Origin: a virus
Taxonomy: Duplodnaviria > Caudoviricetes
Length of the DNA: 58,941 nucleotides
Virus record (IMG/VR): IMGVR_UViG_3300010354_000100
Location: 1-58,941 of that record
Direction: 5' to 3' (one strand)
Shown here: positions 14,793-43,268 of the stretch, one piece after another
Numbering within the stretch: the first letter of the stretch is position 1
Layout: each line of letters opens with the position of its first letter
Position numbers and translations under genes: made by a program
The notes under the pieces: model-generated
The model's input: the letters and a program-made list of their open reading frames with translations, nothing else
What the model was told of the DNA's origin: nothing
Database searches by the model: none

Positions 14793-14823
14793 CCGCAAGG
14801 TTCGGGTGGGGCGAGTCCCCACC

Positions 14824-14837
14824 CGAACACGCGTTCG
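14824..14837. promoter_or_regulatory. LexA (SOS) box
   Basis: CGAAC-ACGC-GTTCG. Confidence 0.7.
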
Positions 14838-15049
14838 CCCCGCGGACACGAATCCGCCCCCGGGCGGAAACAGGCTCCCCCGGGCGGGAGCAGGGGCCAC
14901 TCTGCGTGGCCGGCCGACCACAAAAGAAATCTTTCACAAGGTTGCGAAAGCGACCGCGATGTGATACAGTATAGGTAGGGCAGTTGCCCTGAGAATAATT
15001 ATCGCGTCCGAGTTGCGAAAGCGACAAAGATGTGATACACTTAGAGTAT

Positions 15050-15275
15050 AAGGCAATACGAATACAGTAAGCAATTACTGACAACACATAGGAATACATC
15101 ACTTACACAAGTTGTATCACCAGCAATACTTACCGACGACCGTCCTAGGCGGTCGGCTCGTAGTCCCTTCTGCGTCGAGCCTTCCCTGTCAGTCCCTGTA
15201 ATCCGACGCAGGCGGAGTTGCTATCCGCCGAGTGTCAGTATGTGCGCGACGACGGTCGCTGTCGGTAGTTGCTTA
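15050..15275 (+). ncRNA. putative structured ncRNA
   Basis: promoter at 15012 and no ORF; long closing helix 15122-15144 pairs with 15251-15273. Confidence 0.55.
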
Positions 15276-15318
15276 GTGTATCCGTATGTGATACACTGTA
15301 AATAGAAAGGTAAACACA

Positions 15319-15495
15319 ATGACAAACCAATACCGAGGGTTCATCTCGTTCGCCACGAGCGATGCCGAGTTTGACCTCTTCAAACACAAGATAAATCGTT
15401 ACTACAACTGGTGCGGTGCTCTTCGCATTGACCCGATGGATGACGAGAACTACAACTCATTCTGCGAGGCCGACTCGGTCTTAGAGAATGCCTGA
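15319..15495 (+). CDS. small hypothetical protein (not in ORF track)
   Basis: promoter plus GAAAGG RBS; MTNQYRG... Confidence 0.65.
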   Translation: MTNQYRGFISFATSDAEFDLFKHKINRYYNWCGALRIDPMDDENYNSFCEADSVLENA

Positions 15496-15566
15496 CCTAG
15501 GTCCCGGCGCGCCTTACCTCCTTTCCGCGCGCCGGGACCATCGGGCCCAAGGAAATCGCCGCGCCG

Positions 15567-15595
15567 AATAAATCCAACAATCAAGGAACACCATA
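15567..15595 (+). repeat. bipartite repeat copy 6
   Basis: AATAAATCCA-N8-GGAACACCATA. Confidence 0.9.
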
Positions 15596-15823
15596 AATTC
15601 GGGGGGCGGAGGCAGGTTTGCCGGGAGCAGGGGCAGGCCCCGGGCGACCGGCACAGGGCCGCACGCATCTCACCCGCTACTACTATTGTAGCACAAACTG
15701 ACGCAGAAAGCAACCCAAAAAGAAATTTATCTTTCTTCCCGTAGAGGTTGCTATCTGTCTAACAATATGGTACCATTGAGTTGTGGGGAATAAGCCCCAC
15801 CGAACAGAATAGGAGCAATAACA

Positions 15824-30653: not shown

Positions 30654-30725
30654 GCCCAGTTAGCACAGTGGTAGTGCATCCGCCTTGTAAGCGGAAGGTC
30701 CTCAGTTCAATCCTGAGACTGGGCT
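30654..30725 (+). tRNA. trnT: tRNA-Thr(UGU)
   Basis: GCCCAGT/ACTGGGC acceptor; TCCGC-CTTGTAA-GCGGA anticodon arm; GTTCAAT T-loop. Confidence 0.9.
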
Positions 30726-30880
30726 CTGTGTGGCGGATTCGTCCACCGTCACGAAATTCGTGATATGAGAGGAAACTGATACGAATTCCCCTCACCCCAG
30801 CGATACAAATAGTTGACACTGGCGGCAACTGTCCGTATCGTAAAAGTGTTAGCGATAGTGGTACATAAGGGAAGAACAAC

Positions 30881-38683: not shown

Positions 38684-39240
38684 TTAAGCAACTAAGACCA
38701 TTCCACGACAGCGAGGCGCTTGCCAGGATTTACGCAAAGCCTCATGACCACAGGATTTATGGACGTGGACACCATGTCCGAGTTGAGGTAACCAAGAACA
38801 TCGTTCGCGATGCGATTTCAATGTCAAGAGGGAGCAGTATTGCCGACCTGAGTTGCGGAAACGGGGACATAGTTCGCTCAATGGGTTTGCAAAATATGTT
38901 TCTTGGTGACTATGCGCCTGGCTACGAGTTGGTCGGACCAATCGACAAGACGATAATTCAAATTCCGAAAGTCCACGTTTATGTATGTTCTGAATCGTTG
39001 GAACACGTCGAAGACCCTTTGCAAATCCTGAAACTGGTGCGTGACAAGTCCAAGTATCTTGTTCTTTCTACGCCAATCGAAAACTGGGAAGACACGAACG
39101 AAGAGCACTATTGGTCGTGGGACCGAGAAGGGATTGAAGAGTTGTTTTCTCAGTCTGGCTGGAAGCCCGACATGTTTCTTTTCCTCGACACAACAGTTTT
39201 TGGAGAGCCATACAAGTACGGAATTTGGGTCTGTAAGTGA
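38680..39240 (+). CDS. class I SAM-dependent methyltransferase-like protein
   Basis: IADLSCGNG, CSESLEHVEDP, LVLSTP. Confidence 0.75.
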   Translation: MIKQLRPFHDSEALARIYAKPHDHRIYGRGHHVRVEVTKNIVRDAISMSRGSSIADLSCGNGDIVRSMGLQNMFLGDYAPGYELVGPIDKTIIQIPKVHVYVCSESLEHVEDPLQILKLVRDKSKYLVLSTPIENWEDTNEEHYWSWDREGIEELFSQSGWKPDMFLFLDTTVFGEPYKYGIWVCK

Positions 39241-40103
39241 AGATTCTGATAACCGGCGATGCCGGTTTTGTCGGTGGATACTTTCGCAAGTCCCTTGAAG
39301 GTCACGACATTGTCGGAGTGGACATCAAGAATGGTCTTGATGCCAGGAAATTCTTTGCTGAAGATGACACCAAATTTGACCTAGTCGTGCATCTCGCTGC
39401 CATAGTTGGAGGTCGTGCAACAATCGAGGGAGCACCTCTTTCTGTCGCTGTCGATTTAGCAATCGACTCAGAGTTATTCCAATGGGCTTTGCGAACTCGC
39501 CCAGGAAGAATTATTTACTACTCGTCATCCGCTGCTTACCCAATACACCTTCAGGCTGCTGGAAGCACGCACAGGTTGAAGGAGTCCGACATAGACCTTT
39601 CAGACATAAAGTCTCCTGACTACACATACGGGTGGGCAAAACTAACTGGAGAAATGCTCGCCAGTTATGCAGAAAAAGAAGGATTGAGAGTTCATGTATT
39701 TAGGCCATTCTCTGGATACGGAGAAGACCAATCATTGGACTATCCGTTTCCATCGTTCATCATGCGAGGAGTGCAAAGGCAGGACCCATTCCTTATTTGG
39801 GGTACTGGAAAACAAACGCGGGATTTCATGCACATGGAAGATGTTGTCGCAGCAACGCTGGAAGCAGTCAAGCAAGACGTTCCCGGCCCAGTGAATCTTG
39901 GGCTCGGAAGGGCCACCTCGTTCAATGAACTTGCTGAAATAGTCACCAAGCAGTGCGGATATTTCCCTTTCTACGAAAGAAAACTTGGAGCCCCAGAGGG
40001 AGTTCAATATCGGGTATGTGACCCTACAAAAATGCTTTCTTTCTATAAGCCAAAAATAACTTTAGAAGAAGGCGTATCAAGAGCAATTAAATATCTTTCA
40101 TGA
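39237..40103 (+). CDS. NAD-dependent epimerase/dehydratase
   Basis: ITGDAGFVG, HLAA.VGG, SSS.AY, YGWAK, RPFSGYG. Confidence 0.92.
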   Translation: MKILITGDAGFVGGYFRKSLEGHDIVGVDIKNGLDARKFFAEDDTKFDLVVHLAAIVGGRATIEGAPLSVAVDLAIDSELFQWALRTRPGRIIYYSSSAAYPIHLQAAGSTHRLKESDIDLSDIKSPDYTYGWAKLTGEMLASYAEKEGLRVHVFRPFSGYGEDQSLDYPFPSFIMRGVQRQDPFLIWGTGKQTRDFMHMEDVVAATLEAVKQDVPGPVNLGLGRATSFNELAEIVTKQCGYFPFYERKLGAPEGVQYRVCDPTKMLSFYKPKITLEEGVSRAIKYLS

Positions 40104-40163
40104 AAGTTGCTTTGGTGCACCGAAACCCGTAGGCTTTACTCAACCAATTGAAAGGCAAACCAA

Positions 40164-41342
40164 ATGCTCAAATTCATCGTTTCACTGTTCGTCTCTGCCG
40201 CATCCCTGATGTCGCAGCCGTTGCCAAACGACAACGGGTACCGTCCCGCATGGGGTCTTGACAGAATTGACCAACGTCAATCAACGCTCAATGACAACTA
40301 CACCTACAACCTGACCGGAGAGGGAGTCAACGTTTACGTTTTTGACTCTGGAATTACTTCCGGTCACGACGATTTTGAAGGGCGAGTAGATGCGGGCTTC
40401 AGTGTCATAACCGACGGATTAGGAACAGAGGACTGCGCAGGACACGGCACGCACACGGCAAGTCTCGTTGGTGGCAAGACCTACGGGGTGGCAAAGAAAG
40501 TCAGACTGATTCCCGTGCGTGTTCTGAATTGCAACAACAGCAACTCCTCAAGTGCAACGTTGTACCCGGCAATCGATTGGATTATTGAACACCACAAGCC
40601 AGCAACTCCGGCAGTGGTCAACATGAGTGTCGGCATGCCAAAATCTGAGGCGTTCAACGAGGCAGTCCGCAGGCTCATTGCCGACGGTCTCATCGTCGTT
40701 GGTGCCGCTGGTAATCAATCCAAAGATGCGTGCCTGTATTCCCCCGCTTCGGAGCCTTCAATCATTTCTGTTGGCGGAACAGACAAAACGGACCTCCGCG
40801 GGACTCAATCAAACTTCGGCTCATGCGTTGATTTGTTTGCTCCCGGCTGGGACCTTGTAGGCGCATGGACTGGAGGTGCATCCGTATACCGCTCAAGCAG
40901 CGGCACCTCAAATGCGGCACCAATCGTCAGCGGAATTGCTGCGCTTATGCTGCAAGAAAATCCAACACTCACCCAGTCCCAGGTAGAGGCAAATCTCAAG
41001 TCAACTGCCACAGCGGGAGCACTGTTCAACATTGGCGCAGGGAGTCCCAACCTTCTCGCCTACTCGCATTTTGCTGCTCAGCAAGTTGTACCAACGACGA
41101 CAACGATTGTCACGACGACAACGACTGTTCCAGTTGCCCCTGTTCCAACCCCGGTCGTAACAACGACTACGGTCGTTCAGAACGTCACAACCACCACCGC
41201 TGCACCACAACCGCAACAGTTGGAACTGTCCTGTTCGAATCCAGCAGAACGGACGCGCTTCTACGGCGTTCCCTACGTTTGCGTGAACACCGGCAACCAG
41301 TTGATGTGGATTCCCCAGCGCTATTCGCCAGGACGTCCATAA
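40164..41342 (+). CDS. secreted S8 subtilisin-like serine protease with Thr/Pro-rich tail
   Basis: WGLDRIDQ, FDSG, GHGTH, SGTSNAAP triad; signal peptide. Confidence 0.92.
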   Translation: MLKFIVSLFVSAASLMSQPLPNDNGYRPAWGLDRIDQRQSTLNDNYTYNLTGEGVNVYVFDSGITSGHDDFEGRVDAGFSVITDGLGTEDCAGHGTHTASLVGGKTYGVAKKVRLIPVRVLNCNNSNSSSATLYPAIDWIIEHHKPATPAVVNMSVGMPKSEAFNEAVRRLIADGLIVVGAAGNQSKDACLYSPASEPSIISVGGTDKTDLRGTQSNFGSCVDLFAPGWDLVGAWTGGASVYRSSSGTSNAAPIVSGIAALMLQENPTLTQSQVEANLKSTATAGALFNIGAGSPNLLAYSHFAAQQVVPTTTTIVTTTTTVPVAPVPTPVVTTTTVVQNVTTTTAAPQPQQLELSCSNPAERTRFYGVPYVCVNTGNQLMWIPQRYSPGRP

Positions 41343-43268
41343 CTACTTGATTGGGCAAGCGCCTGTCGCGCAGTTGTCCAAGTCCAACTCTCCGTCGAAC
41401 GACTTCTGCTGAAGTGGGATGGTGAAGTCAATGCCTGCAAGCATCTTCTCGTAATCCTCTTTTGAGCATGCCTCGTATGGAGGCAATGGGAAGTTGTGGT
41501 CGCTGTGAAGCAAGAACGACACGGATTTGACTCCATTGTCGTAGTTCTTTTCCAGCCACTCCTTCATTGATGCGAGTTCTTCCTTGCGGTAGTACACGGT
41601 CACCGAAACTGCGTTGTCAGCCCACACTGTCTGCATCTTCTTGACCCACTCCAACTGCTCAACTGCGGTCATGGATGTTGCGAGTACAGAGCCTTCCGGC
41701 GACATGCATGGGAAGTCAACGACGTAGCGAGTGTGGTCCTCGCGACCGTCAAGACCGATGTCCCATTGGACCTTGTATCCACGCTTACGGCAAGCGTCAA
41801 CCAGCGGGTCTGCCGAGCCGAAACGCACGCGACGTACGTAATACTGCGCAAACGCTGGGTGGATTCCTGGGGTAACGCCGGGAAGCAGCGACAGTGTTCC
41901 GGATGGCTGAACAGTGGTCAAGCGGACGGAAACTGGCCAGCCCTTTTCCTTGGAGTATTTCTTGTCGAATGCTGCAAGGTTCTTGTACGCCTCATCAAGC
42001 CACTCCACCTTCTCGACAGGAACCTGCAAGATTCCAGTCACATTTTGACCCAATCGTGCGTTCTTCTTGACGATGTTGGTGGTCTTCTCGTACGGGTAAG
42101 CAAGGCGTGTAATTTGCTTTTGGACCTTGTAAAGAAGGATTGAGATTTCCTTCAGTTGCTCAAGGCTCTCAACGTTCGGCAAATAGATGGTCGCCAAGTT
42201 GCACGACTCTCCGTCAGCCAACGCAATCTCCGCACACGGGTTGAAACCCTCGATTGAGGGGTCTGGGTTCTTCTCGCCCAAGCGGCCGACACTGCGGGCC
42301 AATTTGCGATTAAGCAGTCCGTATGGCTCGCCAGAGCCGTCATAGCCCTTCCATAGTTCAGGCATGATTTCTTCGTATGAGTCGGCGTAGATGCTGTTGT
42401 TGCTGTTGGCTCGCCATGCCGGGATGGAGCCAGTAGCCCAGTTCTTGGCTCGCAAGAACAGAACGTCATCTGGGTCACCCATCGCAATCTGTGCAGAGCG
42501 ACGTGACGAACCCGACACGACGATTCGCCCGATGATGTTGCAAATGTCAAGAACATCGATTGAGCGAAGTTTCTTGCCCACGCGACCGTCCAGTACTTTG
42601 CAGATGTCCGCTATGCCGTCGATGAGCGCACCAGGTCCAGATGCGGTACCACCGAAAGTCTTGAGTGGCGCACCGTACTCGCGGATAAGAATCGTGGAGT
42701 AGGAGAAGGACTTACCAGTCTCAAAGTACGACTTCAAGACTGCGTGCAAGAGTCGCTTCCAACCGTGACGCGAATCAGGGACAATGATGTCGGCGTCATT
42801 GCTGCGCTCATGGGTGATGCTCACGCCTGACTTGACTTTTGGAAGGTCATGAATCTTTGCCCGCTCCACGGAGAATCCGACGCCACCGCCAAGCATGAGA
42901 TACTCAAACAGGAGTTCAAAATCCTCAATCTTTTCAATGTTTGTGAAGTAGCAGTTGTTTAACGACGACCCGTTGAATTTCTGAACGAGTGGCGTTCCAA
43001 GTTGCCAAAGTGCTCGGCCGGAGAATGAGCAGCGCAAATTGAACATGTGGTCGAAGAGAGCCTCTGCTTCTTCCTTCGTGTACTCGACTCCAATTTCGTG
43101 AGCACCGTTAACCACGCGCTGAAGAGTTTCAGTCCAAGTTTCATTGTCGCCGTTCTCCTTCTTGCGACTATAGGTGCGCAAGAAAACGATTTCTCCCATG
43201 CCGTTAAATCCCCAAGGAGCAAGTTTTTGGGAATAGGAGTCCACAAAGGACTGGTCTAGCAATGTCAT
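41343..43268 (-). CDS. nrdJ: class II (B12-dependent) ribonucleoside-triphosphate reductase
   Basis: RTYSR, LNNC, GGVG, RRSA, NPCAE, CNL, TVQPSGT, C-terminal CATGACP. Confidence 0.92.
   Translation of the reverse strand: MTLLDQSFVDSYSQKLAPWGFNGMGEIVFLRTYSRKKENGDNETWTETLQRVVNGAHEIGVEYTKEEAEALFDHMFNLRCSFSGRALWQLGTPLVQKFNGSSLNNCYFTNIEKIEDFELLFEYLMLGGGVGFSVERAKIHDLPKVKSGVSITHERSNDADIIVPDSRHGWKRLLHAVLKSYFETGKSFSYSTILIREYGAPLKTFGGTASGPGALIDGIADICKVLDGRVGKKLRSIDVLDICNIIGRIVVSGSSRRSAQIAMGDPDDVLFLRAKNWATGSIPAWRANSNNSIYADSYEEIMPELWKGYDGSGEPYGLLNRKLARSVGRLGEKNPDPSIEGFNPCAEIALADGESCNLATIYLPNVESLEQLKEISILLYKVQKQITRLAYPYEKTTNIVKKNARLGQNVTGILQVPVEKVEWLDEAYKNLAAFDKKYSKEKGWPVSVRLTTVQPSGTLSLLPGVTPGIHPAFAQYYVRRVRFGSADPLVDACRKRGYKVQWDIGLDGREDHTRYVVDFPCMSPEGSVLATSMTAVEQLEWVKKMQTVWADNAVSVTVYYRKEELASMKEWLEKNYDNGVKSVSFLLHSDHNFPLPPYEACSKEDYEKMLAGIDFTIPLQQKSFDGELDLDNCATGACPIK

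What the first reader, a model, noticed from the sequence alone, without database searches (positions are those of the whole stretch)
15050..15275. Promoter-driven ORF-less structured RNA with repeated UCCCU motifs
Seen: a standard cassette promoter (15012) and leader are followed by no gene. There is a CAGTAA-GCAA-TTACTG hairpin, then a long interrupted helix (AGCAA/TTGCT, TACCGAC/GTCGGTA, GACCGTC/GACGGTC). It encloses GGCTCG/CGAGCC and GGCGGA/TCCGCC stems, an alternative CTGCGTCG/CGACGCAG pairing, and three TCCCT motifs. Inference: an sRNA with anti-Shine-Dalgarno-like seeds, or a switchable/pseudoknotted RNA.
Basis: partly seen in the sequence, partly recalled or inferred. Interest (0 to 1): 0.7.

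Follow-up and report, generated by a model that had tools for sequence, protein, structure and literature searches.

The report
Structured noncoding RNA of freshwater actinophages
A phage of freshwater actinobacteria carries a promoter-driven gene with no protein product, whose roughly 230-base RNA folds into a conserved multi-helix shape matching no known RNA family; its function is still unknown.

Summary
A promoter at 15013-15041 is followed by about 240 nt with no conserved ORF, and this stretch folds far better than shuffles (z -5.7).

The element is conserved downstream of a DUF932 gene in five related IMG/VR phage contigs and in four further metagenome contigs. That gives 9 distinct sequences at 77% mean column identity.

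- A 25-bp closing helix joins the 5' and 3' ends (P1). It continues into two further helices (P1b, P1c), giving a rod of about 40 bp.
- Hairpins P4 and P5 branch from the 3' strand.
- The apical domain holds an invariant hairpin (P2), a variable hairpin (P3) and a C-rich, G-poor strand with the pyrimidine/UCCCU motifs.

In the main model, 96% of pair cells are standard pairs against 29-54% in slid controls. Twenty-three pairs change on both sides.

There is no Rfam match, no match in 50,697 phage records, and one copy per genome. Metatranscriptome contigs hold the element, at higher depth than flanking contigs in two runs.

Verdict: a real, new structured phage ncRNA family. The mechanism is inferred only. 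A trans-acting RNA using exposed pyrimidine-rich seeds is most likely; a protein decoy is close behind.

The parts
14800..14828 (+). Perfect 12-bp GC-rich hairpin just after the DUF932 stop codon. It is the likely terminator of the upstream gene and is not part of the RNA.
   Evidence: Inverted repeat I3, 100% complementary; sequence.
14941..14970 (+). Upstream tandem promoter: -35 TTGCGA 14942-14947, 17-nt spacer, -10 TACAGT 14965-14970. A short GGGC/GCCC hairpin follows at 14977-14990.
   Evidence: Exact copy of the 14-nt promoter motif. Direct repeat D1 with 15012-15039, 89%. An upstream promoter plus short hairpin is also present in relatives. Reading it as a promoter is an inference from the consensus.
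15012..15041 (+). Promoter of the RNA: -35 TTGCGA 15013-15018, 17-nt spacer, extended -10 TG 15033-15034, -10 TACACT 15036-15041. The predicted start is about 15047-15049.
   Evidence: The same promoter precedes the element in all relatives read. The start site is inferred, not mapped.
15047..15285 (+). The noncoding RNA itself. The structured core of 228 nt runs from 15058 to 15285.
   Evidence: z -5.73. The covariance model matches 15047-15292 at 229.9 bits on +, against 25.5 bits on -. 54-pair model: 96.1% of cells paired. No conserved ORF.
15058..15083 (+). P1, 5' strand. It pairs with 15260-15285 in a 25-bp closing helix.
   Evidence: Helix 1: 97.3% of cells paired, 8 of 25 pairs change on both sides. 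Inverted repeat I1, 28 nt, 86%.
15085..15090 (+). P1b, 5' strand (CACATA). It pairs with 15239-15244.
   Evidence: 48 of 54 cells paired against 9-29 of 50-54 when slid; 3 of 6 pairs change on both sides.
15091..15098 (+). P1c, 5' strand. It pairs with 15197-15204, which includes the UG of the third UCCCUG motif.
   Evidence: with one column shift made by hand for five sequences: 62 of 67 cells paired against 8-30 of 67 when slid; 6 of 8 pairs change on both sides.
15111..15124 (+). P2 hairpin GUUG-UAUCAC-CAGC, nearly invariant. It contains the reverse complement of the promoter core GTGATACA.
   Evidence: Columns 66-75 are invariant in 9 of 9 sequences. The helix cannot be tested by covariation (helix 2). 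Inverted repeat I2.
15138..15154 (+). P3, a hairpin of variable sequence.
   Evidence: A local hairpin of 4-8 bp forms in 9 of 9 sequences when the segment is folded alone. The window and L005 differ by a C:G to U:A change.
15155..15181 (+). P3b, a small helix that presents pyrimidine motif 1 (TCCCT at 15164-15168) in its loop.
Evidence: Helix 4: 4 pairs, 94.4% paired. A pyrimidine run of 8-11 nt is present in 9 of 9.
15182..15197 (+). Single-stranded C-rich strand carrying motifs 2 and 3 (TCCCT at 15183 and 15193).
   Evidence: UCCCU is kept in 6 of 9 (motif 2) and 8 of 9 (motif 3) sequences. The region is 33-43% C and 18-22% G. Unpaired in the consensus.
15205..15236 (+). P4, a two-part hairpin: GACGC/GTGTC outside, GGCGGA/TCCGCC inside. 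Its 7-nt loop is conserved: CUUGCUA in 8 of 9 sequences, GUUGCUA in the window.
   Evidence: Helix 5: 98% paired, 9 of 11 pairs change on both sides. Loop columns 174-179 are invariant.
15246..15259 (+). P5 hairpin with the invariant loop GACG.
   Evidence: Helix 6: 100% paired, 4 of 5 pairs change on both sides.
15260..15285 (+). P1, 3' strand. In the window it also holds TTGCTT (15269-15274), which I read as the -35 of the next promoter.
   Evidence: direct repeat D1, third copy at 15268-15295.
15286..15297 (+). Extended -10 region of the next cassette promoter, which drives the 58-aa ORF at 15319-15495. This is the boundary of the element.

Best explanation
SHOWN
Positions 15047-15285 (+) are a stand-alone gene for a structured noncoding RNA of about 230-240 nt in an uncultured freshwater actinophage.
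- Two tandem sigma-A-type promoters precede it.
- It encodes no conserved peptide.
- It occurs once per genome.
- Its fold is maintained by compensatory substitutions: a rod of about 40 bp (P1-P1b-P1c) built on one continuous 5' strand, hairpins P4 and P5 branching from the 3' strand, and an apical domain. The apical domain holds P2, P3 and a C-rich, G-poor strand with three pyrimidine/UCCCU motifs.
I put the probability that this is a real functional RNA gene at about 0.9.

INFERRED MECHANISM (about 0.4)
The RNA is made early and abundantly and acts in trans. The rigid helical scaffold protects it from nucleases. It displays the pyrimidine-rich motifs, one in a hairpin loop and two in a single strand, as seeds that pair with purine-rich ribosome-binding regions of host mRNAs, and possibly phage mRNAs, to block their translation or destabilise them. 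C-rich loops work this way in regulatory RNAs of Hfq-less Gram-positive bacteria (recalled).

NOT ACCOUNTED FOR
The sequence-conserved hairpin loops (UAUCAC, UUGCUA, GACG) would be tertiary or protein contacts. This mechanism does not explain them.
For: RNA gene
- z -5.73.
- 9 distinct homologues.
- 54-pair model: 96.1% of cells paired against 28.6-53.7% in six slid controls. 23 pairs change on both sides against 1-6 in the slid controls. 0 of 500 shuffles reach the observed percentage paired, the number of pairs or of cells changed on both sides, or the covariation score. For 'further standard pair types', however, 60 of 500 shuffles reach the observed value.
- P1b and P1c add 14 pairs, 9 of them changing on both sides.
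- A 1-nt indel between L003 and L137 shifts every reading frame while the RNA is kept.
- The + strand folds lower than the - strand in 7 of 9 sequences, and there are 5-11 G-U pairs per sequence.
- A conserved promoter lies directly upstream.
- The downstream gene differs among relatives and has its own promoter.

Expression
- Metatranscriptome contigs identical to the window cover 15071-15265 at depth 24.3, against 2-5.6 for four flanking identical contigs (run X14).
- In run X20, a contig covers 15093-15253 at depth 8.6, against 2.1-3.5 for two flanking contigs.

Mechanism
- A pyrimidine run of 8-11 nt is present at motif 1 in 9 of 9 sequences. UCCCU is kept at motif 3 in 8 of 9.
- Mean predicted unpaired probability of the motifs is 0.46-0.60, against 0.33 overall.
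- Three TCCCT copies compare with 0.15 expected.
Against: - No target is known.
- An RNAduplex scan of three of the five phage genomes (G000, G002, G003) with both motif regions gave best energies no better than five shuffled queries in each of the six tests.
- Motif 1 keeps its composition but not its sequence between clades, and motif 2 is lost in 3 of 9 sequences. This fits a degenerate target or a protein at least as well as a specific mRNA.
- A 228-nt RNA with eight helices and three sequence-conserved loops is more elaborate than most base-pairing sRNAs.
- The expression evidence comes from assembled contigs only. It gives no strand and no ends, DNA carry-over cannot be excluded, and the two runs may belong to one campaign.
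- No terminator follows the element, so the 3' end is unknown.
- The minus strand folds as well or better in 2 of 9 sequences.
Confidence: 0.4

Rival explanations
1. Protein decoy or RNP scaffold. The RNA sequesters or recruits a host protein that recognises pyrimidine-rich single strands or the conserved loops. Candidates are termination factor Rho (a rut-like C-rich, G-poor strand on a closed scaffold), ribosomal protein S1, RNA polymerase, or a phage protein.
For: - Stems covary while three hairpin loops stay fixed in sequence. This is typical of recognition surfaces.
- The central strand is 33-43% C and 18-22% G, with three pyrimidine blocks 10-20 nt apart.
- Motif 1 conserves composition rather than sequence.
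- It is a large, multi-helix RNA.
- Abundant early noncoding RNAs that are toxic to the host are known in Cluster A mycobacteriophages (PMC5712189, passages read).
Against: - No partner has been identified.
- No TROVE, RtcB, RNase III or reverse transcriptase gene is present in the held parts of the five genomes, which are 43-79% complete.
- No 6S-like central bubble and no Rfam hit.
- No binding can be tested with these tools.
Confidence: 0.3
2. Cis-acting transcript element. A processive antitermination RNA (put-like or EAR-like), or a processing or stability module, modifies the polymerase or the long transcript that runs from the tandem promoters into the downstream cassettes.
For: - It sits behind two strong promoters with no terminator of its own.
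- Downstream cassettes on the same strand end in GC-rich hairpins.
- One 850-nt contig of an RNA library (run X23) runs from the DUF932 gene through the element and stops at 15282.
Against: - Every downstream cassette read has its own promoter, and the gene next to the element differs among relatives.
- The known put and EAR RNAs are much smaller (recalled).
- No Rfam match.
Confidence: 0.1
3. Self-assembling RNA. Conserved complementary segments (AGCRA beside P2 and UUGCU in the P4 loop) form intermolecular kissing contacts, giving an oligomeric RNA particle as in phi29 pRNA or the ROOL and GOLLD RNAs.
For: Columns 77-81 and 174-178 can pair in 9 of 9 sequences, with A-U or G-U at one position. 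Both segments are among the most conserved parts.
Against: - Both segments are nearly invariant, so there is no covariation test.
- The same bases are needed for the P2 hairpin.
- The contact could equally be intramolecular.
Confidence: 0.05
4. Not a functional RNA. The element is a DNA-level palindromic feature (an origin, a recombination site, or the remnant of a decayed cassette gene).
For: - 28-nt inverted repeat arms.
- The minus strand folds about as well in some homologues.
- The P2 segment is an inverted copy of the promoter core.
Against: - 5-11 G-U pairs per sequence would be A-C mismatches on the other strand.
- Covariation extends to small internal hairpins.
- A dedicated promoter is conserved.
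- In two RNA libraries the element's contigs lie at higher depth than flanking contigs.
- There is no coding signal.
Confidence: 0.05

Closest known systems
C-rich-seed regulatory RNAs of Hfq-less Gram-positives: Staphylococcus RNAIII and RsaE/RoxS, actinobacterial 6C/B11 (features recalled; a B11 paper, PMC10470900, was seen only in a search listing)
   Same: - Several unpaired UCCC-type or pyrimidine motifs are displayed on a structured RNA.
- As in RNAIII, the 5' and 3' ends are closed by a long-range helix.
- The host phylum is expected to lack Hfq (recalled).
   Different: - No sequence or structure match to any Rfam model.
- No run of four C anywhere in 9 of 9 sequences.
- It is encoded by a lytic-type phage early region, and no target is known.
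Abundant early noncoding RNAs made from Pleft of Cluster A mycobacteriophages L5, D29 and StarStuff (PMC5712189; abstract and passages read)
   Same: - It is an actinophage element immediately downstream of a strong early-type promoter.
- It has no conserved ORF and its function is unknown.
- It probably accumulates.
   Different: - No nucleotide similarity: blastn of 14800-15500 against 50,697 phage records found nothing.
- Those RNAs lie at the genome end, and no conserved secondary structure is described in the passages I read.
- Here the structure is supported by covariation, but abundance and toxicity are untested.
6S RNA and Ms1 (RNA polymerase-binding RNAs; features recalled)
   Same: Similar length (about 200 nt), a long closing helix and a rod-like overall shape.
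   Different: - The rod is interrupted by three-way junctions with hairpins P5 and P4, not by a two-sided central bubble.
- No Rfam hit even at E up to 10.
Large phage-associated structured RNAs of unknown function (ROOL, GOLLD; phi29 pRNA). The preprint 10.1101/2024.12.08.627333 was seen as a listing and abstract start only.
   Same: It is phage-borne, has multiple helices, shows covariation-supported structure with conserved loops, and may form loop-loop contacts.
   Different: It is much smaller than ROOL or GOLLD, has no model match, is restricted to one phage lineage, and shows no evidence of oligomers.
Candidate structured RNAs predicted from IMG/VR (Fremin et al. 2023, PMC10690425; outline and passages read)
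   Same: They come from the same data source and the same kind of evidence (intergenic conservation plus covariation).
   Different: Their IMG/VR candidates are 29-151 nt long (mean 67), so the whole 228-nt RNA cannot be one of them. Single hairpins of it could be listed in their supplementary files, which I could not open.

Membership tests
Any Rfam 15 family (4227 models) | Covariance-model score at or above the family's gathering threshold | tested here: not met
   Whole window at gathering thresholds: only a tRNA at 30654-30725. Region 14900-15400 at E up to 10: 5 weak hits, the best 22.3 bits against a threshold of 41, all to eukaryotic snoRNA, miRNA or lncRNA models or a plant-virus element.
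6C RNA (Actinobacteria) | Two hairpins whose loops carry runs of C (recalled), and a match to the Rfam model | tested here: not met
   No CCCC in any of the 9 sequences; no Rfam hit.
6S RNA / Ms1 | Closing stem, two-sided central bubble and terminal stem (recalled), and a match to an Rfam model | tested here: not met
   In the consensus, one unpaired base on the 5' strand lies opposite hairpin P5, and P4 sits at the next junction. No Rfam hit.
RNAIII / RsaE-type C-rich-seed regulators (what it may work like) | Unpaired UCCC-type motifs | tested here: met
   Motifs are unpaired in the consensus. Predicted unpaired probability is 0.46-0.60 against 0.33 overall. This is a prediction only, not probing.
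RNAIII / RsaE-type C-rich-seed regulators (what it may work like) | Pairing of the motifs with ribosome-binding sites of defined target mRNAs | tested here: inconclusive
   The phage-internal duplex scan was no better than shuffled queries. The host genome is unknown, so host targets could not be tested.
Retron msr-msd RNA | An adjacent reverse transcriptase gene | tested here: not met
   RVT_1 found in 0 of 5 records, which are 43-79% complete. The neighbouring genes are DUF932 and small ORFs.
Bacterial Y RNA (YrlA) | A Ro (TROVE) gene in the genome and a tRNA-like domain in the RNA | tested here: not met
   TROVE in 0 of 5 and RtcB in 0 of 5 records. ARAGORN finds only tRNA-Thr at 30654-30726.
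Cluster A mycobacteriophage Pleft ncRNAs | Sequence homology to the L5/D29 right-end transcript | tested here: not met
   blastn (word size 11) of 14800-15500 against 50,697 phage records gave no match.
put / EAR processive antitermination RNAs | Makes the transcribing polymerase resistant to terminators in cis | not testable with these tools
   This needs in-vitro or in-vivo read-through assays. Only the position behind promoters is consistent.

The most novel reading that the evidence does not exclude
The RNA is a host-takeover decoy. Its three spaced pyrimidine (YC-rich) blocks sit on a C-rich, G-poor strand locked inside a closed helical scaffold of about 40 bp. They mimic a rut site and trap termination factor Rho, or another pyrimidine-tract binder such as ribosomal protein S1. 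This would protect the phage's many untranslated leaders and read-through transcripts. It would be an RNA-only anti-Rho factor made by a phage.
Probability: 0.1. Interest if true: 0.85.

Novelty: new variant of a known kind. Interest (0 to 1): 0.6.

Why it matters
Bacterial and phage RNAs over 200 nt with covariation-supported multi-helix structure and no known family are uncommon. Several earlier ones turned out to have new biochemistry.

This RNA sits in the early, promoter-dense accessory region of abundant freshwater actinophages whose hosts are largely uncultured. Its partner, whether mRNA or protein, would point to a host process that these phages must control.

It also offers a clean test case:
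- one copy per genome;
- about 35 covarying pairs (32 counted: 23, 9) from only nine sequences;
- three sequence-conserved loops to mutate.

If it is only a stable regulatory sRNA, it is still the first structurally defined one for this phage group. That claim rests on the searches named in the full report; the supplements of one paper were not seen.

Tried and rejected
WIDENING THE FAMILY
- The 17-nt P2 pattern in IMG/VR gave 119 stretches. nhmmer kept only contigs already known, plus a coding repeat in L035.
- Three further gapped patterns in IMG/VR returned the same five contigs plus L172-L176, none of which the covariance model accepts.
- The metagenome scan added four new sequences and two chance hits, L131 and L139.
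- The scan of one genome per prokaryote species gave three chance hits.
- The distant relative G001 (152 kb, complete, DUF932 at 35% identity) has no copy.

OTHER CHECKS THAT LED NOWHERE
- Phage-internal targets of the pyrimidine motifs: nothing above shuffled queries.
- DUF932 as a general partner: in the phages Madraxi and Orchid the next gene starts 89 and 106 nt after DUF932, leaving no room for such an RNA.
- Coding remnant: rejected.
- P2 as an antisense promoter: its would-be -10 reads TACAAC, lacking the final T, and I saw no -35. This was judged by eye.

EXPRESSION, WEAK OR EMPTY RESULTS
- Run X21 has contigs of a relative on both sides but none over 14924-15259.
- Run X23 has one 850-nt contig that ends at 15282.
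- Neither is evidence either way.

UNAVAILABLE

Full report
WHAT THE WINDOW IS
- The window is an IMG/VR virus record of 58.9 kb, estimated 43% complete, with 52.7% G+C.
- It encodes WhiB, terminase, portal, prohead protease, capsid and a class II ribonucleotide reductase.
- Its capsid is 42-47% identical to capsids of Gordonia and Brevibacterium phages.
- The 348-aa gene upstream of the finding is a DUF932 / phrog_1221 protein. It has relatives below 60% identity in 527 actinophage records. The window is therefore an actinophage.
- Runs holding it are labelled aquatic, lake or freshwater metagenomes.
- Between about 6.6 and 30.4 kb the + strand carries 33 near-copies of ATGTGATACA, against 2.2 expected. 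I read these as extended -10 promoters of the form TG-n-TAnnnT, one per small gene.

CHECKING THE OBSERVATION
- The promoter at 15012-15041 is real as a sequence feature. An 89%-identical copy lies 71 nt upstream.
- No + strand ORF of 30 aa or more lies between 14964 and 15319.
- Positions 15046-15285 fold to -93.8 kcal/mol, z -5.73.
- Three TCCCT copies compare with 0.15 expected in 240 nt.

HOMOLOGUES
- The DUF932 protein retrieved five close IMG/VR contigs (84-99% identity) and one distant contig at 35%.
- In the four distinct close contigs that I read, the same element follows DUF932 after 250-360 nt. L004 carries the same element sequence as L003.
- A three-part pattern found nine real copies in metagenome contigs, several identical to one another, and two chance hits.
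- Together this gives 9 distinct sequences, aligned as A3 at 77% mean column identity.
- Four more IMG/VR scans and one scan of prokaryote genomes added nothing real.
- Covariance model R1 finds exactly one copy in the window and in four relatives. It finds none in the complete 152-kb distant relative.
- The family is therefore confined to one phage lineage.

STRUCTURE
RNAalifold on A3 predicts 56 pairs, 22 of them with compensatory changes. A 54-pair version was counted against controls:
- 96.1% of 486 cells are standard pairs, against 28.6-53.7% when partners are slid by 1-3 columns.
- 23 pairs change on both sides, against 1-6 in the slid controls.
- 0 of 500 shuffles reach the observed percentage paired, the number of pairs or of cells changed on both sides, or the covariation score. 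For 'further standard pair types', 60 of 500 shuffles do reach the observed value.

Per helix:
| Helix | Positions | Cells paired | Pairs changing on both sides |
|---|---|---|---|
| P1 | 15058-15083 with 15260-15285 | 97% | 8 of 25 |
| P4 | 15205-15236 | 98% | 9 of 11 |
| P5 | 15246-15259 | 100% | 4 of 5 |

- P2 (15111-15124) is nearly invariant, so covariation cannot test it.
- P3 forms a local hairpin in 9 of 9 sequences but with different sequences.
- Reading the alignment columns, I found two more nested helices that MAFFT and RNAalifold missed. P1b joins 15085-15090 to 15239-15244. P1c joins 15091-15098 to 15197-15204.
- I shifted one column by hand for five sequences. On that alignment P1b has 48 of 54 cells paired and 3 of 6 pairs changing on both sides. 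P1c has 62 of 67 cells paired and 6 of 8 pairs changing on both sides. Slid controls give 9-29 of 50-54 cells for P1b and 8-30 of 67 for P1c. That alignment was fitted by me, so it leans towards the helices.

The resulting picture is as follows. The 5' strand 15058-15098 is one almost continuous helix strand. P5 and P4 branch from the opposite strand. The apex carries P2, P3, a small helix P3b and a C-rich, G-poor strand.

Tested on the same alignment:
- Only GGCGGA/TCCGCC (the inner part of P4) and the inner four pairs of GGCTCG/CGAGCC survive.
- The CAGTAA/TTACTG hairpin is kept only in the four window-like sequences, where those bases form the 5' strand of P1.
- In the other clade a different local hairpin is possible further 5'. 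It resembles the leader hairpin of neighbouring cassettes.
- A transient 5' hairpin that is later replaced by P1 is therefore conceivable, but untested.

CODING, STRAND AND EXPRESSION
- No ORF is shared across clades, and a 1-nt indel between two close sequences shifts all frames.
- The consensus contains 5-11 G-U pairs per sequence. The + strand folds lower in 7 of 9 sequences, once by only 0.1 kcal/mol, and higher in 2.
- Four RNA-library runs from four studies hold parts of the stretch as assembled contigs.
- In X14 the contig over 15071-15265, identical to the window, has depth 24.3. Four other identical contigs have depths 3.2, 2, 5.6 and 2.4.
- In X20 the contig over 15093-15253 has depth 8.6, against 3.5 and 2.1 for two flanking contigs.
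- Contigs show neither strand nor ends, and DNA carry-over is possible. This is a hint of higher abundance, not proof of a transcript.

WHAT IT IS NOT
- There is no Rfam family match.
- There is no tRNA-like or tmRNA gene here.
- There is no similarity to any of 50,697 phage records.
- The held parts of the five genomes carry no reverse transcriptase, Ro, RtcB or RNase III gene.
- It is not a general companion of DUF932.

HOW IT MAY WORK (inference)
- The neighbouring gene downstream differs among relatives and has its own promoter. The RNA is therefore an independent module and not a leader.
- Its conserved single-stranded parts are pyrimidine-rich. Motif 1 is an 8-11-nt pyrimidine run in 9 of 9 sequences, presented as a hairpin loop. 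Motifs 2 and 3 keep UCCCU in 6 and 8 of 9 sequences. They are moderately accessible in partition-function folds.
- The commonest known use of such motifs in Hfq-less Gram-positive bacteria is pairing with purine-rich ribosome-binding sites (recalled). I take this as the most likely mechanism, at about 0.4.
- It is not demonstrated. The phage-internal target search was empty and host sequence is lacking.
- The conserved loops and the composition-only conservation of motif 1 fit a protein decoy or RNP almost as well (about 0.3).
- Cis antitermination or processing (0.1), self-assembly through the complementary AGCRA and UUGCU segments (0.05) and a DNA-level element (0.05) remain possible.

LITERATURE
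- Three searches were made.
- Abundant early noncoding RNAs of unknown function, toxic to the host, are described for Cluster A mycobacteriophages (PMC5712189, abstract and passages). They share no sequence with this element.
- A screen of IMG/VR reported 8495 novel candidate structured RNAs of 29-151 nt (PMC10690425, outline and passages). The full 228-nt RNA cannot be among them. Fragments might be listed in supplements that I could not open.
- I found no description of this RNA in those three searches.

VERDICT
This is a real, new family of structured phage noncoding RNA. The function is open.

Noticed in passing
window 3587-27927 (11 sites, e.g. 15515-15600): GGAACACCAT occurs 11 times exactly, all on the + strand. 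Each copy ends a conserved intergenic repeat of about 60 nt (CCAAGGGAAACG, a variable block, AAATAAATCCGA, a variable block, GGAACACCAT, then ATTTT). Relatives carry 7-11 copies on the same strand. In relatives one copy lies between DUF932 and the RNA; in the window it lies after the 58-aa gene instead. RNAalifold finds no consensus structure (-1.5 kcal/mol). It may be a second promoter or operator class, or a cassette boundary.
   Followed up: partly
window 6624-30436: There are 33 + strand near-copies of ATGTGATACA (expected 2.2), roughly one per small gene. GTGATACA occurs 30 times on + and 2 times on - in the window, and 7-29 times on the RNA's strand in four relatives. This is an unusually dense promoter-per-gene layout.
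   Followed up: partly
window 15104-15120 versus 15032-15048: The near-invariant P2 hairpin contains UGUAUCAC, the exact reverse complement of the promoter core GTGATACA. The inverted repeat with the RNA's own promoter runs 17 nt at 76%. It could be chance, a relic of an inverted duplication, or a site that pairs with promoter sequences present in read-through transcripts.
   Followed up: partly
window 15265, in run X14: The 203-nt metatranscriptome contig covering 15071-15265 carries 8 extra letters after 15265 that equal 15072-15079. That is, its end runs back into its start. It could be an assembly tip, template switching at helix P1, or a joined molecule; contigs cannot resolve this.
   Followed up: no
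L003 4403-4420, and the same place in L006, L133, L135, L137: In the second clade the 5' end can form a 7-bp local hairpin with a GAAA loop. It resembles the leader hairpin of neighbouring cassettes and overlaps the 5' strand of P1. The window clade has the CAGTAA/TTACTG hairpin at a different place. Both would compete with P1 during transcription.
   Followed up: no
window 14857-14894: An 18-nt GC-rich tandem direct repeat (CCCCCGGGCGG...), 89% identical, lies between the DUF932 terminator hairpin and the first promoter. The relatives read do not have it at this place.
   Followed up: no
window 30654-30726: A tRNA-Thr (anticodon TGT) lies at the end of the small-gene region.
   Followed up: no
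window 39237-43268: An NAD-dependent epimerase/dehydratase, a subtilase-family protease and, on the minus strand, a B12-type ribonucleotide reductase sit among the structural genes.
   Followed up: no
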